This document shows, piece by piece, positions 10,674 through 26,294 of a stretch of 64,000 nucleotides of DNA (position 1 is its first letter; each line of letters begins with the position of its first letter). Position numbers and translations under genes: made by a program. The notes below the pieces were generated by a model, which saw only the letters and a list, made by a program, of their open reading frames with translations, did not search any database and was not told the DNA's origin. This DNA comes from Sporichthyaceae bacterium (GTDB taxonomy: Bacteria; Actinomycetota; Actinomycetes; JACCUZ01): positions 16,489-80,488 of the forward strand of contig JANLYQ010000072.1 of assembly GCA_031365725.1 (NCBI GenBank), read 5' to 3'.

Positions 10674-12137
10674 GTGACCCAGCCCGCTGCTCGACGCCAC
10701 GCTCCCCGTGCGCGGCACGCCGCTCGTCGGCGTCCGCTGCGCCGCGCGCTGACCGCGCTCGGGGTGGTCGTCGCCGTGCTGCTGGTGACCGGCTCGGTGA
10801 GTGCCTTCGTGGTCTACCAGCGGCTCAACGGCAACATCCACAAGGTGGCCGTCGACAAGCAGCTCGGCGATGCGACGTCCCGGCCGACCAAGGTGGCCGA
10901 GGTCGCCAAGGCCGAGAACATCCTGATCATGGGATCGGACAAGCGCTCGGGCGAGAGCGCCGTCGCCGTCCCGGGCGAGCGCTCCGACACCACGATCCTG
11001 CTGCACCTGGCGGCGGACCGTAAGTCGGCGACCGCGGTGAGCATCCCGCGTGACTCGATGGTCTCCATCCCGGCCTGCACCATGCCCGACGGCACGACGA
11101 TCCCGCCGCGCGCCCCGGAGATGTTCAACGCCTCGTTCTCCGACGGCGGGGCGGCCTGCACCATCAAGACCGTCGAGTCGCTCACCAAGATCTTCATCGA
11201 CCACTACGTCGTGATCGACTTCAACGGCTTCAAGGACATGGTCAATGCCCTCGGCGGGGTCCGGGTCTGCCTCCCGCAGGCCGTCAACGACCCGAAGTCG
11301 CACCTCGTCATAGCGGCCGGTTACCACACGGTCAAGGGCGGCCAGGCGCTCGCCTACGTGCGCACCCGCTACGCCCTGGGCAACGGCGGCGACGTCGACC
11401 GGATCGGCCGCCAGCAGGCCTTCCTGTCCTCGATGATCAAGAAGGTCAAGAGCACCGGGCTGCTGCTCAACCCGGTCGCGCTCTTCAACTTCCTCGACGC
11501 CGCCACCAAGTCCCTCACGACCGACCCCTCCCTCGGTGACCTCAACGCGATGCGCTCGCTGGCTCAGGACGTGCGCAGCATGCCGACCAGCGCGGTCACC
11601 TTCCTCACCATCCCCAACGAGCCCTACGCCCTCGACCCCAACCGCCTGCAGTGGAAGAAGTCGGCGGCCGCGGTCTGGACGGCACTGCGCTACGACCAGC
11701 CGCTGCCGGGCAAGGCGACGCCCAGCCCGGGTGCGAGCCCGACACCGTCGGTGACCGGGCCGCCGCTGGTCACTGCGGCCAGCGCGGTCCGGGTGCAGGT
11801 GCTCGACGGCGCCGGCGACCTGGCAGCGGCGCAGAAGGTCGCCGACGGCCTGACCGCTGACGGCTTCCAGGTGGTCAGCGTGAGCAGCGCCGCCCGCTCC
11901 GACCTGACCACCACCACGGTGCGCCACGACCCGGCGTACAACGAGTCGGGACGCACCCTCGGCGCCGCCCTGCCCGGTGCCACCGTCTCCGCCGACGCGA
12001 GCCTCGGCGCGACGCTGGTCGTGACAGTGGGCAGCGACGCTCCCACCGTGGCCACGGTCACGGCGGGCTCCGGCTCGTCCCCCTCGCCCTCGGAGACTCT
12101 GCAGACCCGGTCCGCGGCACAGGGCATCTGCTCCTGA
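10674..12137 (+). CDS. LCP family protein (LytR-CpsA-Psr phosphotransferase) with C-terminal LytR_C domain
   Basis: N-terminal Arg-rich cytoplasmic tail and TM (ALGVVVAVLLVTGSV); LCP core ILIMGSDKR...RSDTTILLHL...AVSIPRDS...KLNAAF-like; C-terminal LytR_C (VRVQVLDGAGDLAAAQKVADGL). GTG start. Confidence 0.85.
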   Translation: MTQPAARRHAPRARHAARRRPLRRALTALGVVVAVLLVTGSVSAFVVYQRLNGNIHKVAVDKQLGDATSRPTKVAEVAKAENILIMGSDKRSGESAVAVPGERSDTTILLHLAADRKSATAVSIPRDSMVSIPACTMPDGTTIPPRAPEMFNASFSDGGAACTIKTVESLTKIFIDHYVVIDFNGFKDMVNALGGVRVCLPQAVNDPKSHLVIAAGYHTVKGGQALAYVRTRYALGNGGDVDRIGRQQAFLSSMIKKVKSTGLLLNPVALFNFLDAATKSLTTDPSLGDLNAMRSLAQDVRSMPTSAVTFLTIPNEPYALDPNRLQWKKSAAAVWTALRYDQPLPGKATPSPGASPTPSVTGPPLVTAASAVRVQVLDGAGDLAAAQKVADGLTADGFQVVSVSSAARSDLTTTTVRHDPAYNESGRTLGAALPGATVSADASLGATLVVTVGSDAPTVATVTAGSGSSPSPSETLQTRSAAQGICS

Positions 12138-12988: not shown

Positions 12989-12991
12989 GTC

Positions 12992-15202: not shown

Positions 15203-16357
15203 CTACCGGTCGACGAGGTCGAAGGTGGCTTCCCACCGGGCCAGGATCTCGTCCGCGGCAAAACGCCGGACACTCTGCCGCGCCGCAGCACCGAAGCGCC
15301 GACGAAGGTCCGCGTCACCCATCAGCCGGGACAGTCCGGCCGCCAGGGCCTCGACGTTGCGCGGTGGCACGACCAGCCCGTCCACCCCGTCGGTCACGAT
15401 CTCTCGCACACCAGGTGCGCAGTCGAAAGCGACGCAGGCGAGACCGCACGCCATGCCTTCGGCCAACGCCATCGGCAGGCCCTCGTGGATGGAGGACAGC
15501 GCGAACACCGAGGACGCCAGCAGCTCGGTCTCGATGTCGCCGGCGAGACCGGGCAGCAGCACCCTGGCTTCGAGCCCGGCGGCCGTCACCTGCTTGCCCA
15601 GGTCGGCCTTCAGCGGACCGCTCCCCCAGATCGTCAGCGTCCAGTCCGGATGCTGGCCGGCGACGAGCCCGAAGGCAGTGATCAGCCGGTCGTAGCCCTT
15701 CTCCGGCGCGAGCCGGCCGGCCGCGACGACCACCTTCGTGGTCTGGTCGCTGGCCGCCTCGGGATAGTAGGACAGCGAGTTGGGCATCACGCCGACGTTG
15801 TTGAAGCCCTCGAGCTCGAACCGCGCCGCATCGTGCTCGGTCAGCAGCAGCATGAGGTCGACATCGCGGTAGAACCTCTGCACCCGCTCCCACCGGCTCG
15901 ACGCCAGCGTCGCATCGAAGGACTCGTGGCTCATGCCGATCACGTGCAGGTGACCGGTGCGGGCCGGGGCCACCCAGTTCATCGAGTGGATCTGCATCAC
16001 CACCACGACACCCTCGTCGACCACGTCGAACAACGACGAGAGCCTCTCTACCGCCGTACGGCGGGCAGCGTGGTGTCGCTCGCGGGCGGCACGGACGCGG
16101 GGGTCGACCCCGGCCAGCAGACCGCCGGTCTTCGGGGGCGGCGGGGGCTCGGCCTCCTCGTTGAGCACCAGCCACCGGTAGGGCCGGGTGCCGTAGTCGT
16201 GCGCCTCGACCGCGTGCTGGATGCCGACCACGGTGACCCGGTGGCCGCGCTCGTGCAGCATCGTGGCGAGGTTGTGCGTGACGCGCTGCACCCCGCCGAG
16301 CTCGTCGATGTTGTTGGCAACCAGGAAGATGTCCCGCGGGGTCTCGGTGGGCGTCAC
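15203..16357 (-). CDS. glycosyltransferase family 4
   Basis: GT-B C-terminal half VVVAAGRLAPEKGYDRLITAF...LTIWGSGPL...SSIHEGLPMALAEGMACGLACVAFD (EX7E-type). GTG start at 16355-16357 overlaps the TGA of the upstream gene (16354-16356) as GTGA. The track ORF extends to 16480 with an Arg-rich, non-GT N-terminus. Confidence 0.8.
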   Translation of the reverse strand: MTPTETPRDIFLVANNIDELGGVQRVTHNLATMLHERGHRVTVVGIQHAVEAHDYGTRPYRWLVLNEEAEPPPPPKTGGLLAGVDPRVRAARERHHAARRTAVERLSSLFDVVDEGVVVVMQIHSMNWVAPARTGHLHVIGMSHESFDATLASSRWERVQRFYRDVDLMLLLTEHDAARFELEGFNNVGVMPNSLSYYPEAASDQTTKVVVAAGRLAPEKGYDRLITAFGLVAGQHPDWTLTIWGSGPLKADLGKQVTAAGLEARVLLPGLAGDIETELLASSVFALSSIHEGLPMALAEGMACGLACVAFDCAPGVREIVTDGVDGLVVPPRNVEALAAGLSRLMGDADLRRRFGAAARQSVRRFAADEILARWEATFDLVDR

Positions 16358-19218
16358 GACCGCTGCCCCGGCCGGGCCGCGAGACCGCGCGCGAAGAACC
16401 GATCCACGACGTCCTGGGCGGCCGCGCCCGTCTCGAACTCGCAGAACCGCTGCTGGAAGTCGGCGTAGCGATCGGCCCACTGCTCCGGCCGCTCCTGCAC
16501 CTCGCGCAGCGCCTCGATCAATCCTGCGGTGTCTTCGACCACTGGGCCCGGCGCGATGTCGGGCAGGTCGAGATAGGTGCCACGCTCGTCGCGGACGTAG
16601 TCCTCGTAGTCGTAGGTGTAGAACACCATCGGCTTGCCCGTGTTGGCGAAGTCGAACATCACCGAGGAATAGTCGGTCACCAGGACGTCCGCGACGAGCA
16701 TCAGCTCGGTCACGTCGTGCACCAGCGACACGTCGGCGACGAACGGGTCGTAGCGCGCCGACAGCTTGTAGCGGTCGAGGTAGTGGGTGCGCAGCATGAG
16801 GAACGAGTCATCGCCGAGCGAACGGCGCATGAGCTCGAGGTCCATCGGCAGGTCGTACTCCTTCTGCAGCCGACGGGCCCGGTCCCGGAAGGTCGGGCAG
16901 TACAGCACCAGCCGCCGGTCGGTCGGTAGCTGTAGCTGCTGCTTCTTGGCCAGCACCCAAGCCGGGTCTGCGCCGCGCACCAGGAAATCGTTGCGGGGCA
17001 AGCCTCTACGCACCAGCTCGCCCTCGTAGCCGTAAGACGTCACGAAGGTCTCGACGAAGTACTCGCTCGGCACCAGCAACGCGCTCCAGCGCCGCATCAT
17101 CGTCTTGTGCTGCTTTCGCACCGATGCTGAGGCCCGCTCCAGCGCCGGCGAGTCGAAGCCCATCCGCTTGAGCGGAGTGCCGTGCCAGGTCTGGACGTAG
17201 GTCGTCTCACGACGCCGGTTGAACATCCGCGGCAGTCCCTGGTTGTCCACCCAGAACTCCGCTCGCGCCAGGTCGTAGAGGTAGCGCCAGCTCTCGCGCT
17301 TGACCAGACGGGCACCCTCGGGAAAGCCGCGCTTGCTGCGGGCGTAGGACCACACCGGCTGAAGGCCCAGCCGGTCCAACCCGGTAGCCACCGCCGCCTC
17401 GTAGATGTAGCGCGGGCTGTCGCTGTACTGCAGGCCCATGTGCGACTCGAACACGGCGAGACCGGGCGTGACCGGCAGCTTGCGGAACAGCCGGTAGGCC
17501 TGCTTCTTCAAGGTCGGGTTGTTGCCGATCGCGCGCTTGGACCGCCAGCGGACCGAGTTGGTGACCCGCCCCGCCAGCAACGCCGCCTGCGCGTCAGCCT
17601 CGGTGCCTCCGACGTCGGGCAGCTGACGGAACGCCAGGTTGAGCCGGACCGTGGCGAAAGCCTCGACCTGACCGCGGGCCGCACCACCGAGGCGGGCGCG
17701 CACGGTGATGGGTCGTCCCGTGATGGCGGTCGGGTCCACCGACACCGGGCTGATGTTGACCTCCTCGCCGTTGCGGATGCGCATTGCGACATCCCACACC
17801 GGGTGCAGCTGGTCGAGGCGGCCGAGCGCCGCGTCCAGGTCGATCACGGTGCGGTAGTGCAGCCGCTTGCCCTCGATCCACCAGTCGCGCACGGGCTTGG
17901 CCCGGTGCGGACCGGTCCGGGCCCGGTTGTTCAGCTCGATGGAGAGCTCGAGGTCGTCACCCGGCGTGATCCGGCCGAGCGGGATGACCACCTGGCCCTG
18001 GATGCGCACGGTGGACCCGACGAGCTCGCCGGCGGTGATGAGGTTGTGCAGGACCAGCCGGCTGAACGGCAGCCGGTGGAACCCCATCTCGGTAACGTCC
18101 ATGACGGCACGGTCGTGCTCGGTGTCGAGGTACTTGTCCGACCAGAACACCCGTCCGTCCCGCTCGACGAGGTCGGTCGAGAGCGCGAAGCCGTGCCGCA
18201 GGTAGTCGACTGTCTTGAGGGTCTCTTCCACGTCGCGACGTCTGATCATGGCGACACAGATCCGCTCGACCGGATACACGAGGTCGAGGGTCTTCTCGCT
18301 GATGGTCTCGAGGTAGTCCGCCGCAAGGTCCATGAACTTGCGCTGGTAGTCCTCGTCGCGCTCGGGCAGGTCCGACAGATAGAGCTTGAGGTCGTGCCGG
18401 ATGAACTTGAAGTCCTTGTGCACCTTCAGATCGCCCGACCCGTGCTCACGCAGGAAGTCATCCATCATCCGGTGCACGGCGATGCGGTCGCGGAAGTTCT
18501 CGAACTCGTGCCGACGCTGGGTGATCGACGCCGCGTCTGCGTCCTCCACCACCCGCCAGTAGTAGATGACGTTGGGCACGACCGCGATCACCTTGGCCTG
18601 GCAGTAGACCTTGGTGGAGAACAGCGAGTCCTCGTAGTGAATGCCTTCGGGGAAGGTGATGCCGTTCTCGCGCAGGAAGTCACGCCGGTAGATCTTGTTG
18701 GTCGACAGCGGGTCGAAGAAGAGCAACGGGTTCTCGCGGATGCCGTTGTAGGTCACCCGCCGGGTGAACAGCTCCTTGACCCAGCCGGTCTCCCGGTCCC
18801 GGGTGAGGTTGACCCGCACCACCTGACCAGCCACCACGTCCGCGCCGGTGCGCTCGGCCGCGAGCAGCATGTTCTTGCAGGCGTGCCGCTCGAACACGTC
18901 GTCGCTGTCGAGGAACATCACGTAGGGCGCCCGCGCGTGCTCGAGCCCGACGTTACGTGGCCGGCTGCAGCCACCACTGTTGCTCGGCAGCTGTACGACG
19001 GTCAGCCGGGCATCCTCGCGTGCCATGGCCTCGGCCACCGCGACCGAGTCGTCGGAGGAAGCGTCGTCGACCACCACCACCTCGAGGTTGCGCAGCGACT
19101 GGTCCAGCACCGAACGGATGGCCGAGGGCAGGTTGGCGCTGTCGTTGTAGCCGATCAGCACCACCGTGACGTCGGGGGTCGCTCGGGCGGGGATGGGCCG
19201 GGTGGGCATGTGCACCAC
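16354..19218 (-). CDS. bifunctional glycosyltransferase family 2 / CDP-glycerol glycerophosphotransferase (TagF/TagB-like) protein
   Basis: N-terminal GT2: VTVVLIGYNDSANL, VVVVDDASSDDS, YVMFLDSDDVF. C-terminal Glyphos_transf domain: VFESHMGLQYSDSPRYIYE, YVQTWHGTPLKRMG, VLVTDYSSVMFDF. Confidence 0.85.
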   Translation of the reverse strand: MVHMPTRPIPARATPDVTVVLIGYNDSANLPSAIRSVLDQSLRNLEVVVVDDASSDDSVAVAEAMAREDARLTVVQLPSNSGGCSRPRNVGLEHARAPYVMFLDSDDVFERHACKNMLLAAERTGADVVAGQVVRVNLTRDRETGWVKELFTRRVTYNGIRENPLLFFDPLSTNKIYRRDFLRENGITFPEGIHYEDSLFSTKVYCQAKVIAVVPNVIYYWRVVEDADAASITQRRHEFENFRDRIAVHRMMDDFLREHGSGDLKVHKDFKFIRHDLKLYLSDLPERDEDYQRKFMDLAADYLETISEKTLDLVYPVERICVAMIRRRDVEETLKTVDYLRHGFALSTDLVERDGRVFWSDKYLDTEHDRAVMDVTEMGFHRLPFSRLVLHNLITAGELVGSTVRIQGQVVIPLGRITPGDDLELSIELNNRARTGPHRAKPVRDWWIEGKRLHYRTVIDLDAALGRLDQLHPVWDVAMRIRNGEEVNISPVSVDPTAITGRPITVRARLGGAARGQVEAFATVRLNLAFRQLPDVGGTEADAQAALLAGRVTNSVRWRSKRAIGNNPTLKKQAYRLFRKLPVTPGLAVFESHMGLQYSDSPRYIYEAAVATGLDRLGLQPVWSYARSKRGFPEGARLVKRESWRYLYDLARAEFWVDNQGLPRMFNRRRETTYVQTWHGTPLKRMGFDSPALERASASVRKQHKTMMRRWSALLVPSEYFVETFVTSYGYEGELVRRGLPRNDFLVRGADPAWVLAKKQQLQLPTDRRLVLYCPTFRDRARRLQKEYDLPMDLELMRRSLGDDSFLMLRTHYLDRYKLSARYDPFVADVSLVHDVTELMLVADVLVTDYSSVMFDFANTGKPMVFYTYDYEDYVRDERGTYLDLPDIAPGPVVEDTAGLIEALREVQERPEQWADRYADFQQRFCEFETGAAAQDVVDRFFARGLAARPGQRS

Positions 19219-19270: not shown

Positions 19271-20140
19271 TCACACCACCGGCGGTCGTCCCGCCAGCGT
19301 GAGCCGCCAGACCGTCGACCAGCGCATGACCCGCCGCGGTCCGGCGCCCGGCCCGAAGCCCTCGCGGAAGCCGGCGAACCACTCCCGCAGCAGCCGCGGC
19401 GAGCGCAGCCGGGCGACGGACACCAGCGTCCAGGTCGTCAGGTACATGACGATCAGCGGCGCAGGGAGGTTCCGGCGGGCCACCCAGACGCGGTTGCGCG
19501 CGTTGTTGCGGAGGTAGGCCGCGTGCCGGGCCGGTGAGGTGGCCGGATGGTTCATCACCACGTCCGGGGCGTACCAGGTGGTGAAGTCCTCGTCCCAGAT
19601 CCGCCAGACGAGCTCGATGCCCTCGTGGCCGTAGAAGAAGTGCCCCGGCCAGCCACCGACCCGGTGGAACAGCTCGGCCCGCACGACGAACGTGCCCTCC
19701 CAGATCCAGCCCACCACTCCTGCCCGCAGCGGGTCACGGCCACCGGGTCGCGGAACCCACCGCGAGGGCGAGGGCGCCCCCCCGGGGTCGACCGGACGCG
19801 GCTGCACGGCACCCACCTCGGGCTGCCGCTCCAGCACTGCACAGAGCCGCGAGAGCACGTCGGTGGTCGGGAGGTAGGCATCATCGTCGTAGAAGAAGAG
19901 CACGTCGCCGCGCGCCTCGGCGGCCCCGACGTTGCGCCCCTCGGGGATGCCGACGTTCTCGGGCAGGTGAACGCTGCGCACGCCCGCCGGCAGGCCCACC
20001 GGCTCCCACCCGTTGCCCACGACCACCACGTCGAGGTCGACGTCCTCCTGCGCCAACAACGAGGCCAGTGCCCGCGGGAACTCCCGCGGCCGGGTGCCCA
20101 TGCTCAGCACCACGGCGCCGACCCGGGGACGAGTGCTCAT
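19271..20140 (-). CDS. glycosyltransferase family 2
   Basis: VGAVVLSMGTRPREF, VVVVGNGWEP, LFFYDDDAYL (DXD). ATG start overlaps the upstream TGA (ATGA at 20137-20140). Confidence 0.75.
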   Translation of the reverse strand: MSTRPRVGAVVLSMGTRPREFPRALASLLAQEDVDLDVVVVGNGWEPVGLPAGVRSVHLPENVGIPEGRNVGAAEARGDVLFFYDDDAYLPTTDVLSRLCAVLERQPEVGAVQPRPVDPGGAPSPSRWVPRPGGRDPLRAGVVGWIWEGTFVVRAELFHRVGGWPGHFFYGHEGIELVWRIWDEDFTTWYAPDVVMNHPATSPARHAAYLRNNARNRVWVARRNLPAPLIVMYLTTWTLVSVARLRSPRLLREWFAGFREGFGPGAGPRRVMRWSTVWRLTLAGRPPVV

Positions 20141-20946
20141 CGCAGCCGGCTCGAGGTGAGGATCGCCGCGAGGTGACCGGTGACGGTGACGACAGCGACC
20201 GGCAGGAGGACCAGCACGACCACCCGCGTGACCTCCACACCGCCACCGGTGAGCACGTCACCGATCGCCGCGACGAACGCCAGCAACGTCATCTCGATCG
20301 AGTGGAACACCCGGTGGAACGGCAGGTACCGTGCGAGCGAGCGCAGCCGACGCAGCAGCGACACCTGGGGTGTTGCCTCGCCGGCGTTGTCCTCGAGCTT
20401 CATCAGGCCGCTGGCGGTCCGCGCCAGGTGCACCCCGTCGTTGAGCGACTTGTTGACCAGCACCAGCACCGCGAGCACCGCGCCCAGCGTCGTCCAGCCG
20501 CCGATGGACCGGACACCCCCGTCAGCTCGTACACCGAGGGCCAGCGGGATCGCGCTCTCGGCGACCGTGTGGCCGAGCTTGTCGAGGAAGAACCCGGCCG
20601 GGGAGAAGGTCTGCCGCCACCGCGCCACCTCACCGTCGCAGCAGTCCCACAGCATCTGCAGCTGGCCGAGCAGCATCGCGAGGACGGCACCGGCAAGGCC
20701 CGGCACCAGCAGCGCGGCGCCGGCCGCCGCGCCCGTGAGGATCATCAGCACGGTCACCGCATTGGCGGTGAGCGCGGTGCCGATCAGCACGCGGGTGAGG
20801 TACGGCGACAGCCGGCGCTGGTAGAGGTCGGCCGTCCAGTGCTCGGAGTTGCGTCGGCCCCGGATCGCGGGGGGCTGGGTCACCGCGCGCAGCTCGGCGA
20901 TGGTGGGCCGCTCAGCCACCGGGTGCCCCGACGCTGACGGGCGCAC
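20137..20946 (-). CDS. CDP-alcohol phosphatidyltransferase family protein; last Asp of the signature replaced by His
   Basis: D-x2-DG-x2-AR-x8-G-x3-D-x3-H: DCCDGEVARWRQTFSPAGFFLDKLGH; 5-6 TM helices. Overlaps the upstream gene by ~35 nt if the ATG at 20946 is used. Confidence 0.7.
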   Translation of the reverse strand: MRPSASGHPVAERPTIAELRAVTQPPAIRGRRNSEHWTADLYQRRLSPYLTRVLIGTALTANAVTVLMILTGAAAGAALLVPGLAGAVLAMLLGQLQMLWDCCDGEVARWRQTFSPAGFFLDKLGHTVAESAIPLALGVRADGGVRSIGGWTTLGAVLAVLVLVNKSLNDGVHLARTASGLMKLEDNAGEATPQVSLLRRLRSLARYLPFHRVFHSIEMTLLAFVAAIGDVLTGGGVEVTRVVVLVLLPVAVVTVTGHLAAILTSSRLR

Positions 20947-22786
20947 GATCGGGCCGTCGGCGCACCTCGCGCAGCACTCTCGTCGGCTCGACCACGAGGA
21001 AGAGCATGCCGAGCCCGGCGACCAGCACCCACAGGCCCCCCCGGGCGAGCGCGGGCGCCGGGCCGGGCAGCAGAGTCGCGGCGAGCGCCAGCAGACCGAG
21101 CACGGCCAGCCGTCCGGCGAAGCCCAGGCCGGCAGCCACGGTCGCCGGTGGCGGTGGCGTCAGCCGGTGCAGGACCCGGTAGAGCTCGTCGTAGTGGTGC
21201 GAGGCGACCACCAGCAGCAGCAGGAAGGTGGCCGCAGGGACCCTGTCACGCACCCCGAGCGCGGCCGCAAGCGCGAGCAGGCCGCCGTACTCGGTGAGAC
21301 GGAGCAAGGGCGGACGCAGCCACAACCACCGCGAGGTGCCCTCCGGCGGCCCGGCGAGACGCCCCGCGACCCGGACGGGCACCAAGGCCCCGGCATCGAC
21401 CTGGGCCAGCACGATGGCTTTCTCGCGCGGGGAGACGGGGGGCGCCGGCCACGAGCGGGCACGCAGCACCCGGCCCACCGACGTGTAGCCCAGCGACACC
21501 AACGCCAGACCCAGCAGCACAGCGAGGGCCAGCAGCGGGAGCCCGAGAGCGGCCAGCAGCGAGAGCACCAGCCACCGCTCGCCGATACCCAGGTGCAGCA
21601 GCTTCTTGACCGTGGTGACACCGCGGCGATCGCCGGCGCGGCGCGACTGCTCGACGGCGCGCGCGGCACGCGCGTCACCGCACACCGGTGCGGCAGCCAC
21701 GTCGGAGCGGGTGTCCAGCGGCAGCGCGACGACGACGGTCTCGCGCAGCTCCTTGACCGCGGTGAAGGTGTAGTCGACCGTGTGCCGCGCCGTCTGCACC
21801 GTGAGCAGGGCAGCGGCCAGCCACCAGGCGCCGCGGCCCGCCAAGTGCCCCGAGAGGGGCGTGGCGCCCCAGCCGACCGACACACCCCAGGCGAGGCCGC
21901 CGTAGCAGGCGAATTCCTTCAGCCGGTCGGTCGACGCATCCAGCCACGCCCCGGTGGCGGAGAATGCCCGGCGATAGCGCGCGACCTCACCGTCGACGCA
22001 GTCGAGCACGAACGACGTCTGCATCAGCAGCGCGCCGACGAGCAGCGCCGGACGGGTGCCGAGCGCGAAGGACCCGGCCGCGGCCAGGCCGAGGACGACC
22101 GACCCGGCGGTCACCTGGTTGGGACTGAGCTCGAGACGAAGCGCCAGCGGCGTCAGCCGCCGCGACAGCGGCCGGTGCAGCAGGGTCGCCGTCACGCCGT
22201 CGTCGGCCTTCGTGGCTCTGGCGAGCCGGGCAGCATGCACCTCGTGCGGGGTGAGCGCGTCCAGCCGCAGCTGCAGACCCCGTGCCGGGTCGTCAGCGCG
22301 GGACCACTCCCACGGATCGAGCAGCACGGTGGCCACGGCCACCTCGCGGCGCACGAGAGCGAGCAGCAGAAAGGCGAGCGGGTCTCCGGTCCAGCCGCGC
22401 ACCCGGGCCAGCTCGGCGACGCTGCGTGCCACGGCTGCGGCCGGACCGCGATCGACGGCCGCGACGCGAAGTGCGCCGGCAAAGGCAGTGTCCACGTCGT
22501 ACGCCGAGTGGACCGCCGTCGCCACCCCGACCACCCGACCGGCCCGCACCCGGAGGTCAGGCGGGTAGTCGGCTGCGCGGCTGACCAGAGCCATCGTCGC
22601 GGACCGAGGGTCTTCGGCGAGGTCGGCCAACGCCGCCGGGTGCACCTGCAGGTTGCTCGACACCAGCAGCACCGGGCCGCCGGCCGCCGGGTCCGGCGAA
22701 GCAGGCAGGTCCAGTGCAGCGGCCAGGTCCGACAGCCCGGTCGCGAGGTCCGGGGGGGCTGGGTCCACCGCGACCGGCGCGCTCAC
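20912..22786 (-). CDS. IPCT/DIPPS-like fusion: degenerate N-terminal nucleotidyltransferase-like domain + complete CDP-alcohol phosphotransferase domain + extra C-terminal TM region
   Basis: CDP-OH signature complete (DCVDGEVARYRRAFSATGAWLDASTD). N-terminal ~230 aa retain IPCT-like blocks (DVDTAFAGALRVAAVD; WEWSRADDPARGLQLRLDAL) but lack the G-x-G-x-R-L NTP-binding loop. GTG start at 22784-22786 overlaps the TGA of the ABC ATPase gene (GTGA). The track ORF start at 22975 would overlap that gene by 190 nt. Confidence 0.65.
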   Translation of the reverse strand: MSAPVAVDPAPPDLATGLSDLAAALDLPASPDPAAGGPVLLVSSNLQVHPAALADLAEDPRSATMALVSRAADYPPDLRVRAGRVVGVATAVHSAYDVDTAFAGALRVAAVDRGPAAAVARSVAELARVRGWTGDPLAFLLLALVRREVAVATVLLDPWEWSRADDPARGLQLRLDALTPHEVHAARLARATKADDGVTATLLHRPLSRRLTPLALRLELSPNQVTAGSVVLGLAAAGSFALGTRPALLVGALLMQTSFVLDCVDGEVARYRRAFSATGAWLDASTDRLKEFACYGGLAWGVSVGWGATPLSGHLAGRGAWWLAAALLTVQTARHTVDYTFTAVKELRETVVVALPLDTRSDVAAAPVCGDARAARAVEQSRRAGDRRGVTTVKKLLHLGIGERWLVLSLLAALGLPLLALAVLLGLALVSLGYTSVGRVLRARSWPAPPVSPREKAIVLAQVDAGALVPVRVAGRLAGPPEGTSRWLWLRPPLLRLTEYGGLLALAAALGVRDRVPAATFLLLLVVASHHYDELYRVLHRLTPPPPATVAAGLGFAGRLAVLGLLALAATLLPGPAPALARGGLWVLVAGLGMLFLVVEPTRVLREVRRRPDRAPVSVGAPGG

Positions 22787-23571
22787 TTCCGGGTCCGCCG
22801 GTCCGCGTCCTCCTGGTACTGCCCGAGCGCGTCGTCCAAGGAGCCGTCGGTCACCAGCGCGCCGGCGTTGAGGTAGAGCCCCCGGGTACAGAACCGGCGC
22901 AGGTCGCCCTCGCTGTGCGAGACGAGGAACAGCGTCTTGCCCCCGGAGAGCATCTCGTTCATGCGGCCGTAGCACTTCTCCCGGAAGGCACGGTCGCCGA
23001 CGGCCAGCACCTCGTCGACGAGCACGATCGGCTCGTCGAGAGTGGTGATGACCGAGAAGCCGAGGCGCACCTTCATGCCGGAGGAGAAGTGCCGGAACGG
23101 TGTGTCGAGGAAGTCGCCCACCTCGGCGAAGTCGACGATCTCGTCGAACCGCTCGTTGATCGCGCGGCGCGAGAGGCCGTGCAGACCGGCCGTCAGCCAG
23201 ATGTTGTCGCGGGCGGTGAGGTCGCCCTCGAAGCCACCGGTCACCTCGATCAGCGGGGCGACTCCCCCGGTGACGGCGATGCCGCCGGCATCCGGGATCA
23301 ACACGCCGGCGATCAGCTTGAGCAGCGTGCTCTTGCCCTGGCCGTTGGCCCCGACGAGACCGACCGCCTCGCCCTGACCGACGGTGAAGGACACGTCTTT
23401 CAAGGCCCAGAAGCCACCGGTGCGTGGCTTGCGCTTGCCCCGCGCCGCCGCAGGGGTGATGACACCAGGCGGTTCTTCGCTGGCGAACATGTCGCGCAGA
23501 CGACGGTGCCGGCGACGGTTGCGCTTGAAGTAGATGCCGAGGTTCTGGGCCTCGATGACGGGTGCGCCCAC
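22783..23571 (-). CDS. ABC transporter ATP-binding protein, TagH/polysaccharide-export type
   Basis: IEAQNLGIYFK (first beta strand), Walker A GLVGANGQGKST, signature FSSGMKVRLGFS, Walker B IVLVDEVLAVGD. GTG start at 23569-23571 is 2 nt after the permease stop. The track's long N-terminal extension (to 24138) overlaps the permease gene and is Arg-rich. Confidence 0.85.
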   Translation of the reverse strand: MGAPVIEAQNLGIYFKRNRRRHRRLRDMFASEEPPGVITPAAARGKRKPRTGGFWALKDVSFTVGQGEAVGLVGANGQGKSTLLKLIAGVLIPDAGGIAVTGGVAPLIEVTGGFEGDLTARDNIWLTAGLHGLSRRAINERFDEIVDFAEVGDFLDTPFRHFSSGMKVRLGFSVITTLDEPIVLVDEVLAVGDRAFREKCYGRMNEMLSGGKTLFLVSHSEGDLRRFCTRGLYLNAGALVTDGSLDDALGQYQEDADRRTRK

Positions 23572-23573
23572 CC

Positions 23574-24407
23574 TCAGATCTCCTTCAGGACGGCGCCCTC
23601 GAGCCGGCGGAACACCACCGCACCGGCGACGAACGTGACGACCGCGATGACGGCCGACACCGCAACCGCGCGCCAACCTGCCCACTGGTCGGGGAAGAAC
23701 GCCGTGCGGTAGAGGTCGAAGATGCCGGCGAACGGGTTGAGGATGTAGATGCGCGCGACCGCATGGCCCAGCCGGTGCTGCACATCCTGAGTGCCGTAGA
23801 TCACCGGCGAGAGGTAGAACAGCAGCCGCATGACGGCGTTGATCAGCCGCTCGACGTCGCCGTACAGGATGGCCAGCGGGGCGAGCAGAAGGCCGATGCC
23901 GACCAGGAGCAGGCTCTGGATGAGGAAGGCCAGCGGCGCGAACACGACGTACCAGCTCAGGTGCGCGTGCGTCACGACGGCGAAGAACACGATCACCGGC
24001 ACCGACAGCAGGAACTCGATCGCCTTGGACCCCACGGTGCGCAGCACCCAGATCTCGCGCGGCAGGTTGGTCGAGCGCACCAGCTTGGCGTCCTTGGACA
24101 GCGCGCGCATCGAGGCACGCATCGATCCGTTGGCCCACTGCCAGGGCAGCATCGCGCAGAGCAGGAAGACGATGTACGGCGTGTCACCGACCTGTCGCGT
24201 CATCAGCTTGGTGAAGACGAACCAGTAGACACCGGCGAGCATCAACGGGTCGAGGATCGACCAGAGATAGCCCAGCACCGAGTCGGAGAACTTGACCTTC
24301 AGGTCACGGGTGACCAGCAGGGCGAGGATTCGTCGCGCCCCCCACAGCACCGAGAACCGAGAGGGAGCCACCAGATGGGTCGGCGCCGAGAGGACCTGAC
24401 CAGCCAC
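23574..24407 (-). CDS. ABC-2 type transporter permease, TagG/polymer-export type
   Basis: 6 TM helices, ABC-2 motif region RDLKVKFSDSVLGYLWSILDPL; GTG start with GGGAG-like SD; paired with a TagH-like ATPase. Confidence 0.85.
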   Translation of the reverse strand: MAGQVLSAPTHLVAPSRFSVLWGARRILALLVTRDLKVKFSDSVLGYLWSILDPLMLAGVYWFVFTKLMTRQVGDTPYIVFLLCAMLPWQWANGSMRASMRALSKDAKLVRSTNLPREIWVLRTVGSKAIEFLLSVPVIVFFAVVTHAHLSWYVVFAPLAFLIQSLLLVGIGLLLAPLAILYGDVERLINAVMRLLFYLSPVIYGTQDVQHRLGHAVARIYILNPFAGIFDLYRTAFFPDQWAGWRAVAVSAVIAVVTFVAGAVVFRRLEGAVLKEI

Positions 24408-24501: not shown

Positions 24502-25557
24502 TCAGGCGTGCAGAGCGACGAACTCCTCGACCTTGCGGCGCACCGCCGGTGCGTCGAGGTCGAGGTGCTCGAGGATCGTGAAGCGGTCCGGCCGGGTGCT
24601 GGGGGCCAGCAACACCGCCTCGGCGAACTGGTCGTCCGACAGGCCGAGATCGGCCGGCAACCGCGGCAGCTCGTGGCGTCGCAGACAGGCGTCGACGAGC
24701 ATCCTCGACTCGTCGTCACCCCGCAGGAAGAAGGCGAACAGCGCCCCGATGCCGGCGAGCTCGCCGTGGTTGCCGGCCCCGGGGAAGAGCTGGTCGATCG
24801 CGTGCAGGATCTCGTGGTCGCTGCCGCTGCAGGGCCGGCTCGACCCCGCGGCCGCCATGGCCATGCCGGACAGGACCAGCGCCTCGGCCAACGCGGTGAG
24901 GAACCGGTCGGAGTCGATGCCGTCAGTGCGGTGCACCAGCGCCTCGGCCGCGGTACGGGCGAAGGTGACGGCCAGCCCGTCGACCGGCTCGCCGCGCTCG
25001 GCGCCCGCGAGCTCCCAGTCGGCGATGGCTGAGAGGTTGGAGACGGCGTCGCCGATGCCCGAGCGCACCATGCGCGGCGGCGAGGACCGCACGTAGTCGA
25101 GGTCGACGACCACCGCCATCGGCAGCACGACACCGAAGGACCCCTTGCCGCCCTCGTGCAGCAGCGAGCTGACCGGCGAGGCGATGCCGTCGTGAGCCAG
25201 GTTGGTGGCCACCGCCACCATCGGCAGGGCGAGGCGGGTCGCGGCGTACTTGGCGACGTCGAGGGTGCGACCGCCACCGATCCCGACCACGGCGTCGTAC
25301 GTCGTGCCGCGCAGCTGGGTCTGCAGCTCGCCGGCCGCCTCGAGACTGCCGCCGCGCACGGTGAAGATGTCGGCGTTGCCGAGGCTGGGCCGGATCTCCT
25401 CGACCAGGCGCTCACCCTGTCCGGGTCCGACGGCGACCGCGACATGCCCGCCGGCCGAGATGCGCTTGTCAGCCAGCAGGTCACCCAGACCGGAGACTGC
25501 CCCGGCCCGGATGTCGATGACCAGCGGGCTGAGCAGCATCCGGGCTAGTAGTGGCAC
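24502..25557 (-). CDS. iron-containing alcohol dehydrogenase / DHQS-like superfamily protein, putative sn-glycerol-1-phosphate dehydrogenase (EgsA/AraM family)
   Basis: 351 aa; nucleotide-binding GIGGGRTLDVAKYAA (GGG-x3-D-x2-K) and metal-ligand region typical of G1PDH-type enzymes. GTG at 25557 overlaps the upstream NTP-transferase by 13 nt; ATG at 25537-25539 (MLLSPLVIDIRAG) is an alternative start. Assignment within the superfamily is from recalled motifs only. Confidence 0.55.
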   Translation of the reverse strand: MPLLARMLLSPLVIDIRAGAVSGLGDLLADKRISAGGHVAVAVGPGQGERLVEEIRPSLGNADIFTVRGGSLEAAGELQTQLRGTTYDAVVGIGGGRTLDVAKYAATRLALPMVAVATNLAHDGIASPVSSLLHEGGKGSFGVVLPMAVVVDLDYVRSSPPRMVRSGIGDAVSNLSAIADWELAGAERGEPVDGLAVTFARTAAEALVHRTDGIDSDRFLTALAEALVLSGMAMAAAGSSRPCSGSDHEILHAIDQLFPGAGNHGELAGIGALFAFFLRGDDESRMLVDACLRRHELPRLPADLGLSDDQFAEAVLLAPSTRPDRFTILEHLDLDAPAVRRKVEEFVALHA

Positions 25558-26294
25558 GCGATCTCCCGGGCCCGCGTGAGGTCGTCGTGGTTGTCGACCT
25601 CGACCCAGGGCAGATCCCCGATCGGTGCGGCGCCGATCTCGCCGCCGGTGTCGACCAGGGTCTGGTAGCCGTCCTCGTAGTAGAGGTCGGGGTCCCGGCG
25701 CCAGGTGGCTTCGAGCGCGGTGGTCAACGCATCAGCGGCGTGCGCCTCGATGAGGGTCGCGCCGATGTACTCCCCGCTCGCCTCGGCCGGGTCCATCAGC
25801 TTGGTGATGCGGCGCATCCGGCCGTGCTCGTCGAGGACGACCTTCATCTCCTCCTCGGCCAGCGACTTTCGGTCGTCGAGGGCGAGCAGGATGCCGGGCG
25901 AGCCCGGCTGCTCACGGGCGGCCAGCAGGACACGCTCGACGTCGACGGGGTGCACGGTGTCGCCGTTGACGAGCAGCGCGCCCTGAGCGAGGTGGTCACG
26001 GGCCAGCCAGAGGCTGTAGCAGTTGTTCCACTCCTCGGCCTTGTCGTTGTGCACGAGGGTGAGACGCACGCCGTAGCGCTCCTCGAGCTGGGCCCGCCGC
26101 TGATCGACCGCCTCGGCCCTGTAGCCCACGACGACCGTGACGTCGGTCAGCTCGACGGCCGCGAGGTTGCGCAGCGCGATGTCGAGGATCGTCGTCTCAC
26201 CGTCGACCGGCACCAGGGCTTTGGGCAGCGTGTCGGTGTAGGGCCGCAGTCGTCGCCCGGCCCCTGCTGCCAGCACCAGGCCGATCATCGGCAC
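25545..26294 (-). CDS. NTP-transferase domain protein, IPCT-like cytidylyltransferase (CTP:polyol-phosphate cytidylyltransferase family)
   Basis: GLVLAAGAGRRLRPYT..PKALVPV (G-x-G-x-R-L loop), EEWNNCYSLWLARDHL and WVEVDNHDDLTRAREI resemble the IPCT half of archaeal/Thermotoga IPCT-DIPPS. First gene of the minus-strand operon. Confidence 0.7.
   Translation of the reverse strand: MPMIGLVLAAGAGRRLRPYTDTLPKALVPVDGETTILDIALRNLAAVELTDVTVVVGYRAEAVDQRRAQLEERYGVRLTLVHNDKAEEWNNCYSLWLARDHLAQGALLVNGDTVHPVDVERVLLAAREQPGSPGILLALDDRKSLAEEEMKVVLDEHGRMRRITKLMDPAEASGEYIGATLIEAHAADALTTALEATWRRDPDLYYEDGYQTLVDTGGEIGAAPIGDLPWVEVDNHDDLTRAREIACHY

What the first reader, a model, noticed from the sequence alone, without database searches (positions are those of the whole stretch)
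20137..22786. Paired CDP-alcohol phosphotransferases with complementary defects: degenerate nucleotidyltransferase domain in one, D-to-H signature change in the other
The 625-aa fusion (20912-22786) keeps a complete D-x2-DG-x2-AR-x8-G-x3-D-x3-D signature. Its IPCT-like N-terminal ~230 aa have lost the G-x-G-x-R-L NTP loop, although other IPCT blocks remain, so it looks like a pseudo-cytidylyltransferase scaffold. It also has ~200 extra C-terminal TM residues.

The stand-alone paralogue (20137-20946) has the final Asp of the signature replaced by His (DCCDGEVARW...GFFLDKLGH).

An active stand-alone IPCT-like enzyme sits upstream (25545-26294). This suggests a split of an ancestral bifunctional IPCT/DIPPS, with the remnant domain retained, possibly for substrate channelling or complex assembly.
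Basis: partly seen in the sequence, partly recalled or inferred. Interest (0 to 1): 0.55.

Follow-up and report, generated by a model that had tools for sequence, protein, structure and literature searches.

The report
Conserved paired CDP-alcohol phosphotransferases, actinobacterial wall-polymer operon
Two neighbouring membrane enzymes of the CDP-alcohol phosphotransferase family, one with a dead nucleotidyltransferase-like cap and one lacking the 'invariant' fourth aspartate, are not decayed copies but an ancient, uncharacterised gene pair at the core of a cell-wall polymer operon found across Actinobacteria, including Streptomyces.

Summary
The sequence observations are correct. The 624-aa protein (20912-22786, minus strand) has a complete D-x2-DG-x2-AR-x8-G-x3-D-x3-D signature. 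It also has an N-terminal domain that models as a nucleotidyltransferase fold without the NTP loop, and a C-terminal DUF5941 membrane module. The 260-aa neighbour (20137-20919) has His in place of the fourth Asp.

Neither feature is local decay:
- All 120 closest fusion homologues keep D...D and lack an intact NT domain.
- The stand-alone family has His at this position in 120 of 120 close homologues and in most distant representatives.
- That His has changed to Ala at least twice (Streptomyces, Nonomuraea) on a highly conserved background.
- The two genes co-occur in 75 of about 77 informative loci across Actinomycetota, normally as fusion, stand-alone, GT2. They sit with a TagGH-like exporter, often a G1P dehydrogenase plus a LicC-like cytidylyltransferase, TagF-like enzymes and LCP ligases.

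Both proteins are closest to Archaeoglobus AF2299, which binds CDP-glycerol and has the same inert cytidylyltransferase-like cap.

Best reading: two functional, non-redundant glycerophosphotransferases of an uncharacterised, exported cell-envelope glycopolymer pathway. "Complementary defects" and a "split IPCT/DIPPS" are only partly supported. I rate this a new variant of a known kind, of moderate interest.

The parts
25545..26294 (-). Intact LicC/IPCT-like cytidylyltransferase (249 aa), with the GAGRRL NTP loop and PK motif present. Proposed role: makes the CDP-alcohol donor.
   Evidence: Pfam NTP_transferase 49.8 bits. Best solved relatives are LicC 1jyk (62 bits) and T. maritima IPCT 4jd0. 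Loop sequence checked.
24502..25557 (-). Glycerol-1-phosphate dehydrogenase-like Fe-ADH_2 protein (351 aa). It overlaps the cytidylyltransferase gene by 13 nt.
   Evidence: NCBIfam G1PDH model E 1e-69 (235 bits, below the equivalog cut-off of 413). Best PDB hits are archaeal G1P dehydrogenases 4rgq/4rfl at E 1.7e-46, against about 1e-12 for glycerol dehydrogenases.
23574..24407 (-). ABC-2 permease, TagG/Wzm-like.
   Evidence: Pfam ABC2_membrane; NCBIfam galactan export permease 68 bits, below threshold.
22783..23571 (-). ABC ATPase, TagH/Wzt-like. Its stop overlaps the fusion start as GTGA.
   Evidence: NCBIfam teichoic-acid export ATPase E 4e-56, below threshold; Pfam ABC_tran. Start and stop checked.
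20912..22786 (-). Fusion protein (624 aa): a vestigial nucleotidyltransferase-fold cap, an AF2299-like CDP-alcohol phosphotransferase domain, and a DUF5941 membrane module.
   Evidence: Pfam PF01066 and PF19365. AF2 model pLDDT 89.3, pTM 0.89. Foldseek to 4mnd and 4o6m. Identical NCBI protein P0001.
22253..22786 (-). N-terminal cytosolic domain of the fusion (about residues 1-178). It has the nucleotidyltransferase fold but lacks strand 1, the GxGxR loop and helix A. The metal-site Asp that most homologues keep here (consensus "DL") is Asn in this protein.
   Evidence: Alignment A1. Secondary structure. Foldseek hits to 4jd0, 2xme, 6pd1 and 1jyk. No Pfam hit for this sequence; 2 of 18 family N-domains hit NTP_transf_3 at E of 7e-4 or weaker.
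21926..22003 (-). Complete CDP-AP signature of the fusion, D262-x2-D265-G-x2-AR-x8-G279-x3-D283-x3-D287. It is followed by the invariant E291.
   Evidence: Translation. Invariant in 34 of 34 and 120 of 120 homologues.
20951..21634 (-). C-terminal DUF5941 membrane module (about residues 385-612), with the invariant GERW, RxxR and HHYD..YR motifs.
   Evidence: Pfam PF19365 54.5 bits. Invariant columns. No detectable relation to the CDP-AP domain by hhalign. No paper mentions DUF5941.
20137..20919 (-). Stand-alone six-TM CDP-alcohol phosphotransferase paralogue (260 aa), with His at signature position D4. Its start overlaps the fusion stop, and its stop overlaps the GT2 start as ATGA.
   Evidence: Pfam PF01066 27.1 bits. 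AF2 model pLDDT 81.5. Foldseek to the AF2299 TM domain, TM-score 0.63. 37% identical to the fusion over 97 aa, E 1e-9. Annotated length from P0391. Overlaps.
20569..20646 (-). Variant signature D92-x2-D95-G-x2-AR-x8-G109-x3-D113-x3-H117 (His codon CAC at 20569-20571). E121 lies one helical turn further on.
   Evidence: Translation. D..H in 120 of 120 close homologues and in 104 of 116 motif-bearing 50%-identity representatives. D..A in 120 of 120 Streptomyces homologues. The acid at +4 is almost always kept.
19271..20140 (-). GT2 glycosyltransferase (289 aa). It is the third member of the invariant fusion, stand-alone, GT2 core.
   Evidence: Pfam Glycos_transf_2. Present directly after the stand-alone gene in most related loci.
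16354..19218 (-). GT2 fused to a TagF-like CDP-glycerol glycerophosphotransferase (954 aa).
   Evidence: Pfam Glyphos_transf 312.9 bits and Glycos_transf_2 108 bits.
10674..12137 (+). LCP (LytR-CpsA-Psr) glycopolymer ligase. Two more lie at 29189-30853 and 30952-32220.
   Evidence: Pfam LytR_cpsA_psr at 165, 163 and 139 bits.

Best explanation
The two genes are a conserved, translationally coupled pair of AF2299-like CDP-alcohol phosphotransferases. Together with the GT2 that follows them, they form the membrane core of an actinobacterial pathway for a cell-envelope glycopolymer. That polymer is built on the cytoplasmic face, exported by a TagGH-type ABC transporter and handed to LCP ligases.

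**Proposed steps in this genome**
- The operon first makes its own donor. A glycerol-1-phosphate dehydrogenase reduces DHAP, and a LicC/IPCT-like cytidylyltransferase converts the product to CDP-glycerol (inferred).
- The fusion protein is a canonical enzyme. It has a full metal- and CDP-binding signature and the D4 base. Its cytosolic cap is an inert structural remnant of a cytidylyltransferase, as in AF2299. It carries an extra DUF5941 membrane module of unknown role.
- The stand-alone protein keeps seven of the eight signature residues (D1, D2, G, A, R, G, D3), so it should still bind metal and a CDP-alcohol.
- It does not use the D4 carboxylate. The position is His in most lineages and Ala in Streptomyces and Nonomuraea, while an acidic residue one turn further on (E/D121) is retained.
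- I read the stand-alone protein as a second, non-redundant phosphotransferase, for example primer against extender, or a different acceptor. Proton handling would be done by the His-Glu pair, or by the Glu/Asp alone.

**What is shown:** sequence features, folds, conservation and synteny.

**What is inferred:** donor identity, catalytic competence of the stand-alone protein, and the nature of the product.
For: **Folds and family**
- Both proteins pass the Pfam PF01066 threshold and are closest to AF2299 among solved structures.
- AF2299 accommodates CDP-glycerol and has an N-terminal cytidylyltransferase-like domain (PMC4634129).

**Conservation of the residues**
- The fusion signature is invariant in 120 of 120 homologues.
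- The stand-alone has D..H in 120 of 120 close homologues, 104 of 116 distant representatives and 51 of 75 locus copies. It has D..A in 120 of 120 Streptomyces homologues and 24 of 75 locus copies.
- H-type and A-type proteins within Streptomyces are 75-79% identical, and about 77% identical within Nonomuraea. The switch therefore happened more than once on a constrained background.
- The stand-alone protein is always more conserved than the fusion.
- The acid at D4+4 is kept in both families.

**Gene neighbourhood**
- The pair co-occurs in 75 of about 77 informative loci from Nanopelagicales, Streptomyces, Nonomuraea, Thermoleophilaceae, Frankiaceae and others. GT2 and the TagGH-like genes accompany it.
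- LCP ligases flank the cluster in the window and in a Nanopelagicales locus.
- The TagH, fusion, stand-alone and GT2 genes overlap by 4-8 nt.
- The G1PDH assignment comes, and the LicC-like NT.

**Precedent**
- In eukaryotic CHPT1, a TM3 His-Glu pair spaced i, i+4 is proposed as the proton-abstracting dyad and is essential for activity (PMC10182977).
Against: - No member of either family has been characterised, so every functional step is inference.
- In M. tuberculosis PIP synthase, even D4 to N almost abolishes activity (PMC4634129). A family without D4 may therefore be inactive.
- Ala at this position cannot take part in acid-base chemistry, which weakens the His-dyad idea.
- The His of CHPT1 sits at D3+1, not at D4.
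- G1PDH and the LicC-like enzyme are absent within 10 kb in Nanopelagicales-type loci. Those loci carry a different NT, so the donor may differ between lineages.
- No initiating TagO-like enzyme was seen in the part of the window tested.
- The operon already encodes a TagF-like glycerophosphotransferase. The need for two further GroP transferases is unexplained.
Confidence: 0.5

Rival explanations
1. Obligate heterodimer with division of labour, a refined form of the first reader's idea. CDP-APs are dimers. Here the fusion would supply the only active site. The stand-alone paralogue would be a catalytically dead partner that still binds CDP or metal and has a structural or regulatory role. The vestigial NT cap would dock the soluble cytidylyltransferase for channelling.
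For: - Strict 1:1 co-occurrence and adjacency.
- Overlapping stop and start codons.
- D4 is replaced by residues as different as His and Ala.
- The D4N mutation kills a canonical enzyme without affecting substrate binding (PMC4634129).
- Known family members are homodimers (same paper).
Against: - Seven of eight signature residues, including all three metal-binding Asp, are invariant over sequences down to about 38% identity. That is unusual for a dead subunit.
- The stand-alone protein evolves more slowly than the supposedly active partner.
- The NT cap is shrinking in several lineages: about 125 aa in Streptomyces against up to about 250 aa elsewhere. The soluble NT is missing from half of the loci. 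Both points argue against a conserved docking role.
- No multimer prediction could be run.
Confidence: 0.25
2. The stand-alone paralogue does different chemistry. The acceptor would be a phosphate monoester such as polyprenyl phosphate rather than an alcohol. The product would be polyprenyl-PP-glycerol plus CMP, a lipid-linked primer analogous to the TagO/WecA step. A phosphate nucleophile needs no general base, so D4 would be free to vary.
For: - The D4 position tolerates Ala while the metal and CDP site is intact.
- Several invariant basic residues lie in the TM4-TM5 region (K157, R167, R193, R203).
- No PNPT or Bac_transf initiating enzyme was found among the window ORFs tested.
- LCP ligases, which act on pyrophosphate-linked lipid carriers (established knowledge), flank the cluster.
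- There are faint hits to polyprenyl-phosphate transporter models.
Against: - No CDP-AP is known to use a phosphate acceptor.
- The faint hits are below threshold and look like transmembrane-composition noise.
- tagO-type genes are often encoded away from the polymer cluster. Only part of one window was screened.
Confidence: 0.12
3. The pair makes a small molecule or a lipid head group rather than a polymer. Examples are a diglycerol-phosphate or glycerophospho-inositol type solute, as proposed for Archaeoglobus relatives, or a glycerol-1-phosphate-containing membrane lipid.
For: The closest solved relatives (AF2299, DIPPS) act on soluble substrates (PMC4634129). G1PDH in bacteria has been discussed in the context of archaeal-type lipids (PMC6431249).
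Against: The constant companions are a GT2, a TagGH-like polymer exporter, TagF-like enzymes and LCP ligases. No phosphatase, GGGPS-type prenyltransferase or solute-related gene was seen in the operon.
Confidence: 0.1

Closest known systems
AF2299 of Archaeoglobus fulgidus (PDB 4o6m/4o6n/4q7c)
   Same: - Best solved match by sequence for both proteins (E 3.8e-11 and 4.1e-7). By fold it is the best match for the stand-alone and second, after 4mnd, for the fusion.
- Same architecture as the fusion: an N-terminal cytidylyltransferase-like cytosolic domain followed by a six-TM CDP-AP domain.
- Same D-[GC]-x-DGE-[IV]-AR form of the motif.
- A hydrophilic donor pocket that accommodates CDP-glycerol (PMC4634129).
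   Different: - AF2299 has a canonical D4 and no DUF5941 module.
- It is archaeal, it has no described paired paralogue, and its physiological reaction is itself unassigned.
- Identity is only about 16-20%.
Bifunctional IPCT/DIPPS (PDB 4mnd; NCBIfam NF041135)
   Same: A nucleotidyltransferase fold fused N-terminally to a CDP-AP domain. It is the top Foldseek hit for the fusion (E 4.2e-8 over 413 columns).
   Different: - The IPCT domain of DIPPS is catalytically active. Here the NTP loop and the first part of the fold are absent.
- Model scores are 49 and 26 bits against a cut-off of 580.
- The operon context is glycerol-1-phosphate, not inositol-1-phosphate.
Eukaryotic CHPT1/CEPT1 cholinephosphotransferases
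   Same: They are CDP-APs in which a TM3 His paired with a Glu four residues away is proposed to abstract the acceptor proton and is essential (PMC10182977). The stand-alone protein has H117 and E121 with the same i, i+4 spacing on TM3.
   Different: - In CHPT1 the pair is Glu at G2+1 and His at D3+1, and D4 is still present.
- Here His occupies D4 itself and can be Ala.
- CHPT1/CEPT1 have a lipid acceptor and a 10-TM architecture.
Wall teichoic acid pathway of Firmicutes (TagD/TarIJ, TagB/TagF, TagGH, LCP)
   Same: - A cytoplasmic CDP-alcohol supply from a dehydrogenase plus cytidylyltransferase pair, as in TarJ/TarI.
- A TagF-like enzyme, a TagGH-like exporter and LCP ligases in the same region.
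   Different: - Teichoic acid glycerophosphotransferases are peripheral TagB/TagF-type enzymes, not integral-membrane CDP-APs.
- The donor here would derive from sn-glycerol-1-phosphate rather than glycerol-3-phosphate.
- No TagO or TagD was seen in the tested part of the window.

Membership tests
CDP-alcohol phosphotransferase, class I (Pfam PF01066) | Pfam model score above the gathering threshold (22 bits) | tested here: met
   Fusion 33.8 bits, stand-alone 27.1 bits.
CDP-alcohol phosphotransferase, class I (Pfam PF01066) | Eight "absolutely conserved" signature residues D1xxD2GxxAR...GxxxD3xxxD4 | tested here: met
   This row is for the fusion only. All eight residues are present with canonical spacing, and they are invariant in 120 of 120 homologues.
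CDP-alcohol phosphotransferase, class I (Pfam PF01066) | The same eight-residue signature, in the stand-alone paralogue | tested here: not met
   Seven of the eight are present. D4 is His here, and is His or Ala across the whole orthologous family.
CDP-alcohol phosphotransferase, class I (Pfam PF01066) | Six-TM fold with a juxtamembrane helix, as in solved members | tested here: met
   AF2 models (pLDDT 89.3 and 81.5) match AF2299, DIPPS and PIP synthases by Foldseek.
CDP-alcohol phosphotransferase, class I (Pfam PF01066) | Transfer of a phospho-alcohol from a CDP-alcohol to an acceptor, with CMP release | not testable with these tools
   Needs a biochemical assay.
Bifunctional IPCT/DIPPS (NCBIfam NF041135) | Score above the curated cut-off (580 bits) | tested here: not met
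   49.2 bits (fusion) and 25.9 bits (stand-alone).
Bifunctional IPCT/DIPPS (NCBIfam NF041135) | Catalytically competent cytidylyltransferase domain (GxGxRL NTP loop, PK motif) | tested here: not met
   The loop and the first strand and helix are absent in the window protein. They are degenerate in the longest family members. No Pfam NT domain is recorded in 120 homologues. Only 3 of 120 have any GxGxR-like string in the N-terminal region; the one inspected (P0063) lies mid-domain rather than after the first strand.
Bifunctional IPCT/DIPPS (NCBIfam NF041135) | Nucleotidyltransferase fold N-terminal to the CDP-AP domain | tested here: met
   Foldseek: 4mnd E 4.2e-8 over 413 columns. The N-domain alone hits 4jd0, 2xme, 1jyk and 6pd1.
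AF2299-like CDP-APs | Non-catalytic cytidylyltransferase-like cap plus a CDP-AP domain, with AF2299 as the closest solved relative | tested here: met
   description of AF2299 in PMC4634129.
AF2299-like CDP-APs | Binding of CDP-glycerol as donor | not testable with these tools
   Inferred only, from the relationship to AF2299 and from the adjacent G1PDH and cytidylyltransferase genes.
DUF5941 (Pfam PF19365) | Score above the gathering threshold (27 bits) | tested here: met
   54.5 bits. Nearly all homologues carry PF19365 together with PF01066.
Glycerol-1-phosphate dehydrogenase (EgsA/AraM) | NCBIfam equivalog cut-off (413 bits); closest solved relatives | tested here: inconclusive
   235 bits, E 1e-69, which is below the cut-off. 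The best PDB hits are G1P dehydrogenases at E 1.7e-46, far ahead of glycerol dehydrogenases.
Wall-teichoic-acid-type pathway | TagGH-type exporter, TagF-type transferase and LCP ligase in one region | tested here: met
   The same set is present in Nanopelagicales locus L015. All NCBIfam scores are below the equivalog cut-offs.
Wall-teichoic-acid-type pathway | TagO-type initiating phosphotransferase and TagD-type cytidylyltransferase | tested here: not met
   Neither was found among the ORFs tested between 2.8 and 41.7 kb of the window. The rest of the genome was not available.

The most novel reading that the evidence does not exclude
The fusion, stand-alone and GT2 core, together with the G1P dehydrogenase and the LicC-like cytidylyltransferase, would be the long-sought LtaS-independent route to glycerol-phosphate polymers in Actinobacteria.
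- Integral-membrane CDP-alcohol phosphotransferases, rather than TagB/F or LtaS enzymes, would prime and/or extend a poly(sn-glycerol-1-phosphate)-type chain from CDP-sn-1-glycerol.
- The D4-less paralogue would carry out a base-independent priming step on a phosphorylated lipid carrier.
Probability: 0.15. Interest if true: 0.8.

Novelty: new variant of a known kind. Interest (0 to 1): 0.55.

Why it matters
**For the enzyme family.** The eight-residue signature of CDP-alcohol phosphotransferases is described as absolutely conserved, with D4 as the catalytic base. Here a large family has lost D4 (to His, then Ala) while keeping everything else. That family is strongly constrained and is found throughout the Streptomyces genomes sampled here. 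Either the accepted role of D4 is not universal, or a widespread pseudoenzyme partner exists in this family.

**For actinobacterial cell walls.** The pair marks an uncharacterised envelope-polymer operon. It is present from genome-streamlined freshwater Nanopelagicales to Streptomyces. [quoted passage not shown]

**Testable consequences.**
- It gives a concrete candidate for how Actinobacteria, which lack LtaS, make glycerol-phosphate polymers.
- It offers an explanation for "archaeal" G1PDH genes in bacteria that does not involve ether lipids.

Tried and rejected
- **Sequence proof that the N-domain is an NT domain.** A profile of 18 N-domains found nothing in PDB sequences. Only 2 of 18 gave weak Pfam NTP_transf_3 hits. 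hhalign against the upstream enzyme gave probability below 1%, and BLASTP of the longest variants against it was not significant. The fold assignment therefore rests on the AF2 model plus Foldseek. My by-eye motif matches (LLVxxDLxVHP against LLVNGDTVHP; PWPWxR against LPWVEVD) are not statistically supported.
- **DUF5941 as a degenerate second CDP-AP domain (an internal pseudo-dimer).** Rejected: hhalign probability 0.2%.
- **A natural fusion/stand-alone single-ORF \"Rosetta stone\" in L017.** Rejected as a frameshift artefact of a long-read MAG. L014 and L038 are likewise broken.
- **The 687-aa ORF reaching 22975.** Rejected. It overlaps the TagH-like gene, and the database protein starts at 22786.
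- **Covariation of His/Ala with Glu/Asp at +4.** Only partial. Nonomuraea has Ala with Glu.
- **Literature and records.** The Sciara 2014 AF2299 paper was not held. An exact-protein contig look-up for P0001 found nothing, and the source organism stayed unnamed.
- **Literature searches for DUF5941 or for the gene combination.** They returned only a 2026 synteny survey that leaves the function open.

Full report
**What is in the sequence**

The window is high-GC (about 71%). Between about 16.3 and 26.3 kb it carries a minus-strand gene string:
- a 249-aa nucleotidyltransferase (25545-26294);
- a 351-aa Fe-ADH_2 protein (24502-25557);
- a TagG-like ABC-2 permease (23574-24407);
- a TagH-like ATPase (22783-23571);
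- the 624-aa fusion (20912-22786);
- the stand-alone CDP-alcohol phosphotransferase (20137-20919);
- a 289-aa GT2 (19271-20140);
- a 954-aa GT2/TagF-like fusion (16354-19218).

The TagH-like, fusion, stand-alone and GT2 genes overlap by 4-8 nt (GTGA, GTGGCTGA, ATGA), so they are almost certainly co-translated. The region is flanked by three LCP ligase genes, further glycosyltransferases and a GT-C-like protein. It is therefore a cell-envelope glycopolymer locus.

**Checking the observation**

The fusion signature DCVDGEVARYRRAFSATGAWLDASTD is complete. The stand-alone signature DCCDGEVARWRQTFSPAGFFLDKLGH has His (codon CAC) where D4 should be, with unchanged spacing. The upstream nucleotidyltransferase has an intact GAGRRL loop.

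Corrections:
- The fusion starts at 22786 (an identical 624-aa NCBI protein exists), not at the 687-aa ORF start.
- The stand-alone protein is annotated as 260 aa (P0391), so it starts at 20919.
- The cytosolic domain is about 180-190 residues, not 230.

**The fusion protein**

Pfam sees CDP-OH_P_transf and DUF5941 and nothing in the first 190 residues. An AlphaFold2 model built on 34 homologues is confident (pLDDT 89.3, pTM 0.89).

Foldseek against the PDB gave these matches:
- the bifunctional IPCT-DIPPS 4mnd (E 4.2e-8, 413 columns);
- AF2299 4o6m (E 7.3e-7, 420 columns);
- for the N-domain alone, the inositol-1-phosphate cytidylyltransferases 4jd0 and 2xme, PntC 6pd1, LicC 1jyk and RmlA-type enzymes.

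The cap is therefore a nucleotidyltransferase fold. In the family alignment the window protein begins roughly where the central strand of that fold lies. A few homologues (P0075, P0077, P0099) are about 70 residues longer and keep the first strand and helix, but with DAEPGAVPG-like strings instead of GxGxR...PK. Streptomyces versions are shorter still, with about 125 residues before the juxtamembrane helix.

None of the 120 closest homologues carries a Pfam NT domain. GxGxR-like strings are rare (3 of 120), and the one I checked (P0063) lies mid-domain rather than after the first strand. Sequence-only tests of homology to nucleotidyltransferases failed or were marginal.

The published description of AF2299 reports the same arrangement, an N-terminal cytidylyltransferase-like extramembrane domain packed on the TM domain, with CDP-glycerol in the donor pocket (PMC4634129). 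An inert cap is thus the family norm and has a structural precedent.

The C-terminal DUF5941 part has invariant GERW, RxxR and HHYD..YR motifs. It shows no relation to the CDP-AP domain. No paper in the library mentions it.

**The stand-alone protein**

It passes the Pfam threshold. It models as a standard juxtamembrane-helix plus six-TM protein (pLDDT 81.5) and is closest to the AF2299 TM domain (TM-score 0.63). It is 37% identical to the fusion over the juxtamembrane helix to TM3 (E 1e-9).

Occupancy of the D4 position:

| Set examined | Result |
|---|---|
| 120 closest homologues | all His |
| 116 motif-bearing representatives of 50%-identity clusters, down to about 38% identity | 104 His, 2 Ala; the remainder are regex mis-hits or scattered residues, none D...D |
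| 120 homologues of the Streptomyces orthologue | all Ala |

H-type proteins also occur in Streptomyces and are 75-79% identical to the A-type ones. In Nonomuraea and relatives an H-type protein is 77% identical to A-type ones. The His-to-Ala change therefore happened at least twice without relaxing the rest of the protein.

D1, D2, G, A, R, G and D3 are invariant, as are many polar residues in TM4-TM6. An acidic residue four positions after D4 is retained throughout: Glu with His, Asp or Glu with Ala. It is Glu in all 120 fusion homologues. In every genome compared, the stand-alone protein is more conserved than the fusion (median 46% against 36% identity to the window proteins).

**The pair is ancient and syntenic**

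A scan of one genome per species found 536 stretches encoding fusion relatives. I mapped the operon proteins onto the best 80 loci.
- The stand-alone gene is present in 75 loci.
- About three loci stop at a contig end.
- Two (L022, L044) lack it although sequence continues.

The hosts are Actinomycetota: unclassified Actinomycetes MAGs, Nanopelagicales (acI), Streptomyces, Nonomuraea and other Streptosporangiales, Frankiaceae, Thermoleophilaceae and a Bifidobacteriaceae MAG.

The usual order is ABC permease, ABC ATPase, fusion, stand-alone, GT2. In Streptomyces it is fusion, NT, G1PDH, stand-alone, GT2, permease, ATPase.

Orthologues of the 249-aa NT (above 60% identity) and the G1PDH-like gene accompany the pair in roughly half of the loci. 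Nanopelagicales loci instead carry a different MobA-like NT and a TagF-like gene on the opposite strand, and an LCP ligase directly after GT2.

A 2026 synteny survey of 929 Streptomyces genomes lists the same neighbourhood (CDP-alcohol phosphatidyltransferase, GT2, tagG, tagH, araM, sugar-phosphate NT) among orphan clusters without assigning a function (PMC13118837).

**How it most likely works**

Established points:
- CDP-APs bind a CDP-alcohol and metal through D1-D3 and the G/A/R residues.
- D4 is the proposed base, and D4N nearly abolishes PIP synthase activity without loss of binding (PMC4634129).

Inference for this operon:
1. The Fe-ADH_2 protein is a glycerol-1-phosphate dehydrogenase. 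Solved G1PDHs match at E 1.7e-46, against about 1e-12 for glycerol dehydrogenases. NCBIfam gives E 1e-69, although below the equivalog cut-off.
2. The LicC/IPCT-like NT would turn its product into CDP-glycerol. This dehydrogenase plus cytidylyltransferase pair is analogous to TarJ/TarI.
3. The fusion would act as a canonical glycerophosphotransferase.
4. The stand-alone protein keeps the metal and CDP site under strong selection. I therefore consider it more likely an enzyme than a dead subunit.
5. Because Ala is tolerated at D4, the base function must lie elsewhere or be unnecessary. The retained Glu/Asp one turn away is the obvious candidate.

In eukaryotic CHPT1, a TM3 Glu-His pair spaced i, i+4 is proposed for exactly this role (PMC10182977), although at different positions in the motif.

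The constant companions (GT2, TagGH-like exporter, TagF-like enzymes, LCP ligases) point to a lipid-linked polymer. It would be assembled inside, exported, and attached to peptidoglycan or a lipid anchor.

**Rivals**

- **A heterodimer in which the stand-alone protein is catalytically dead.** This fits the strict pairing and the His/Ala variability. It is hard to reconcile with seven invariant catalytic-site residues and the slower evolution of the supposed dead partner.
- **A phosphate acceptor (polyprenyl phosphate).** This would explain why the base is dispensable, the lack of a TagO-type gene in the tested part of the window, and the LCP context. It has no precedent in the family.
- **A small-molecule or lipid head-group product.** This is disfavoured by the exporter, GT and LCP context.

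None of these can be excluded without experiments or multimer modelling.

The observations are right. The "pseudo-cytidylyltransferase scaffold" reading is supported at fold level and has precedent in AF2299. "Complementary defects" is not a good description, because one partner has no defect in its transferase site. The other partner's variant residue is a conserved and itself variable family trait.

The "split of an ancestral IPCT/DIPPS" idea is possible for the architecture. There is no evidence that the upstream NT is the detached copy. It has no detectable similarity to the remnant, it sits in a glycerol-phosphate rather than inositol context, and it is dispensable in half of the lineages.

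**Novelty and interest**

Both proteins are annotated only generically ("CDP-alcohol phosphatidyltransferase family protein", "DUF5941 domain-containing protein"). I found no characterisation. This is a new variant of a known enzyme kind, embedded in an uncharacterised but very widespread operon.

It matters for two reasons. It challenges the universality of D4. It also offers a concrete candidate for glycerol-phosphate polymer synthesis in Actinobacteria, whose lipoteichoic acid pathway is unknown because LtaS is absent (PMC3196553).

Interest is moderate (0.55). The conservation and sequence data are solid, but the mechanism is inferred.

Noticed in passing
window 10674-12137 (+), 29189-30853 (+), 30952-32220 (+); L015 13425-14858 (-): Three LCP (LytR-CpsA-Psr) ligase genes flank the operon in the window. 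A Nanopelagicales locus has an LCP gene directly after the fusion, stand-alone, GT2 genes. This is a recurrent link between the pair and wall attachment.
   Followed up: partly
window 24502-25557 (-) and related loci (e.g. L058 12081-13142): The actinobacterial "archaeal-type" glycerol-1-phosphate dehydrogenase is operonic with a cytidylyltransferase and CDP-alcohol phosphotransferases, not with GGGPS-type prenyltransferases. This gives a non-ether-lipid explanation for G1PDH genes that have been taken as hints of archaeal-like lipids in Streptomyces (PMC6431249).
   Followed up: partly
window 26471-28126 (+): A 551-aa protein with an animal-haem-peroxidase-like domain and a signal-like N-terminus sits between the cytidylyltransferase gene and another GT2/LCP block.
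   Followed up: no
window 35080-36567 (-): A 495-aa protein combines sigma-70 regions 2 and 4 at its C-terminus with an N-terminal methyltransferase-like domain (weak Pfam MTS hit). This is an unusual architecture.
   Followed up: no
L017 9794-12523; L014 10094-13432; L038 10465-13387: An apparent single ORF joining the fusion and the stand-alone protein (L017), and fragmented genes (L014, L038), are frameshift artefacts in long-read MAG assemblies. They are not real gene fusions or pseudogenes.
   Followed up: yes
L022 (after about 11687) and L044 (after about 5456): In two of about 77 informative loci, a fusion-family gene is not followed by the stand-alone paralogue or GT2 although the contig continues. 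These are possible exceptions to obligate pairing, or assembly problems (L022 has very low coverage).
   Followed up: partly
window 20137-20919 (-), residues about 50-90: The TM1-TM2 region of the stand-alone protein gives sub-threshold matches to polyprenyl-phosphate translocase/transporter models (PF04018 E 1.7e-3; NF052564 E 5e-3). This is probably transmembrane-composition noise. I record it because of the phosphate-acceptor hypothesis.
   Followed up: no
L058 16966-17913 (+): In Streptomyces the cluster is followed by a phytoene/squalene-synthase-like gene. This is consistent with the "crtB" neighbour reported in the 2026 synteny survey (PMC13118837).
   Followed up: no
window 12182-13648 (+) and 13649-15181 (+): A CoA-transferase subunit pair and a PMT_2-type GT-C membrane protein are inserted between an LCP gene and the GT4/TagF-like genes of the glycopolymer region.
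   Followed up: no
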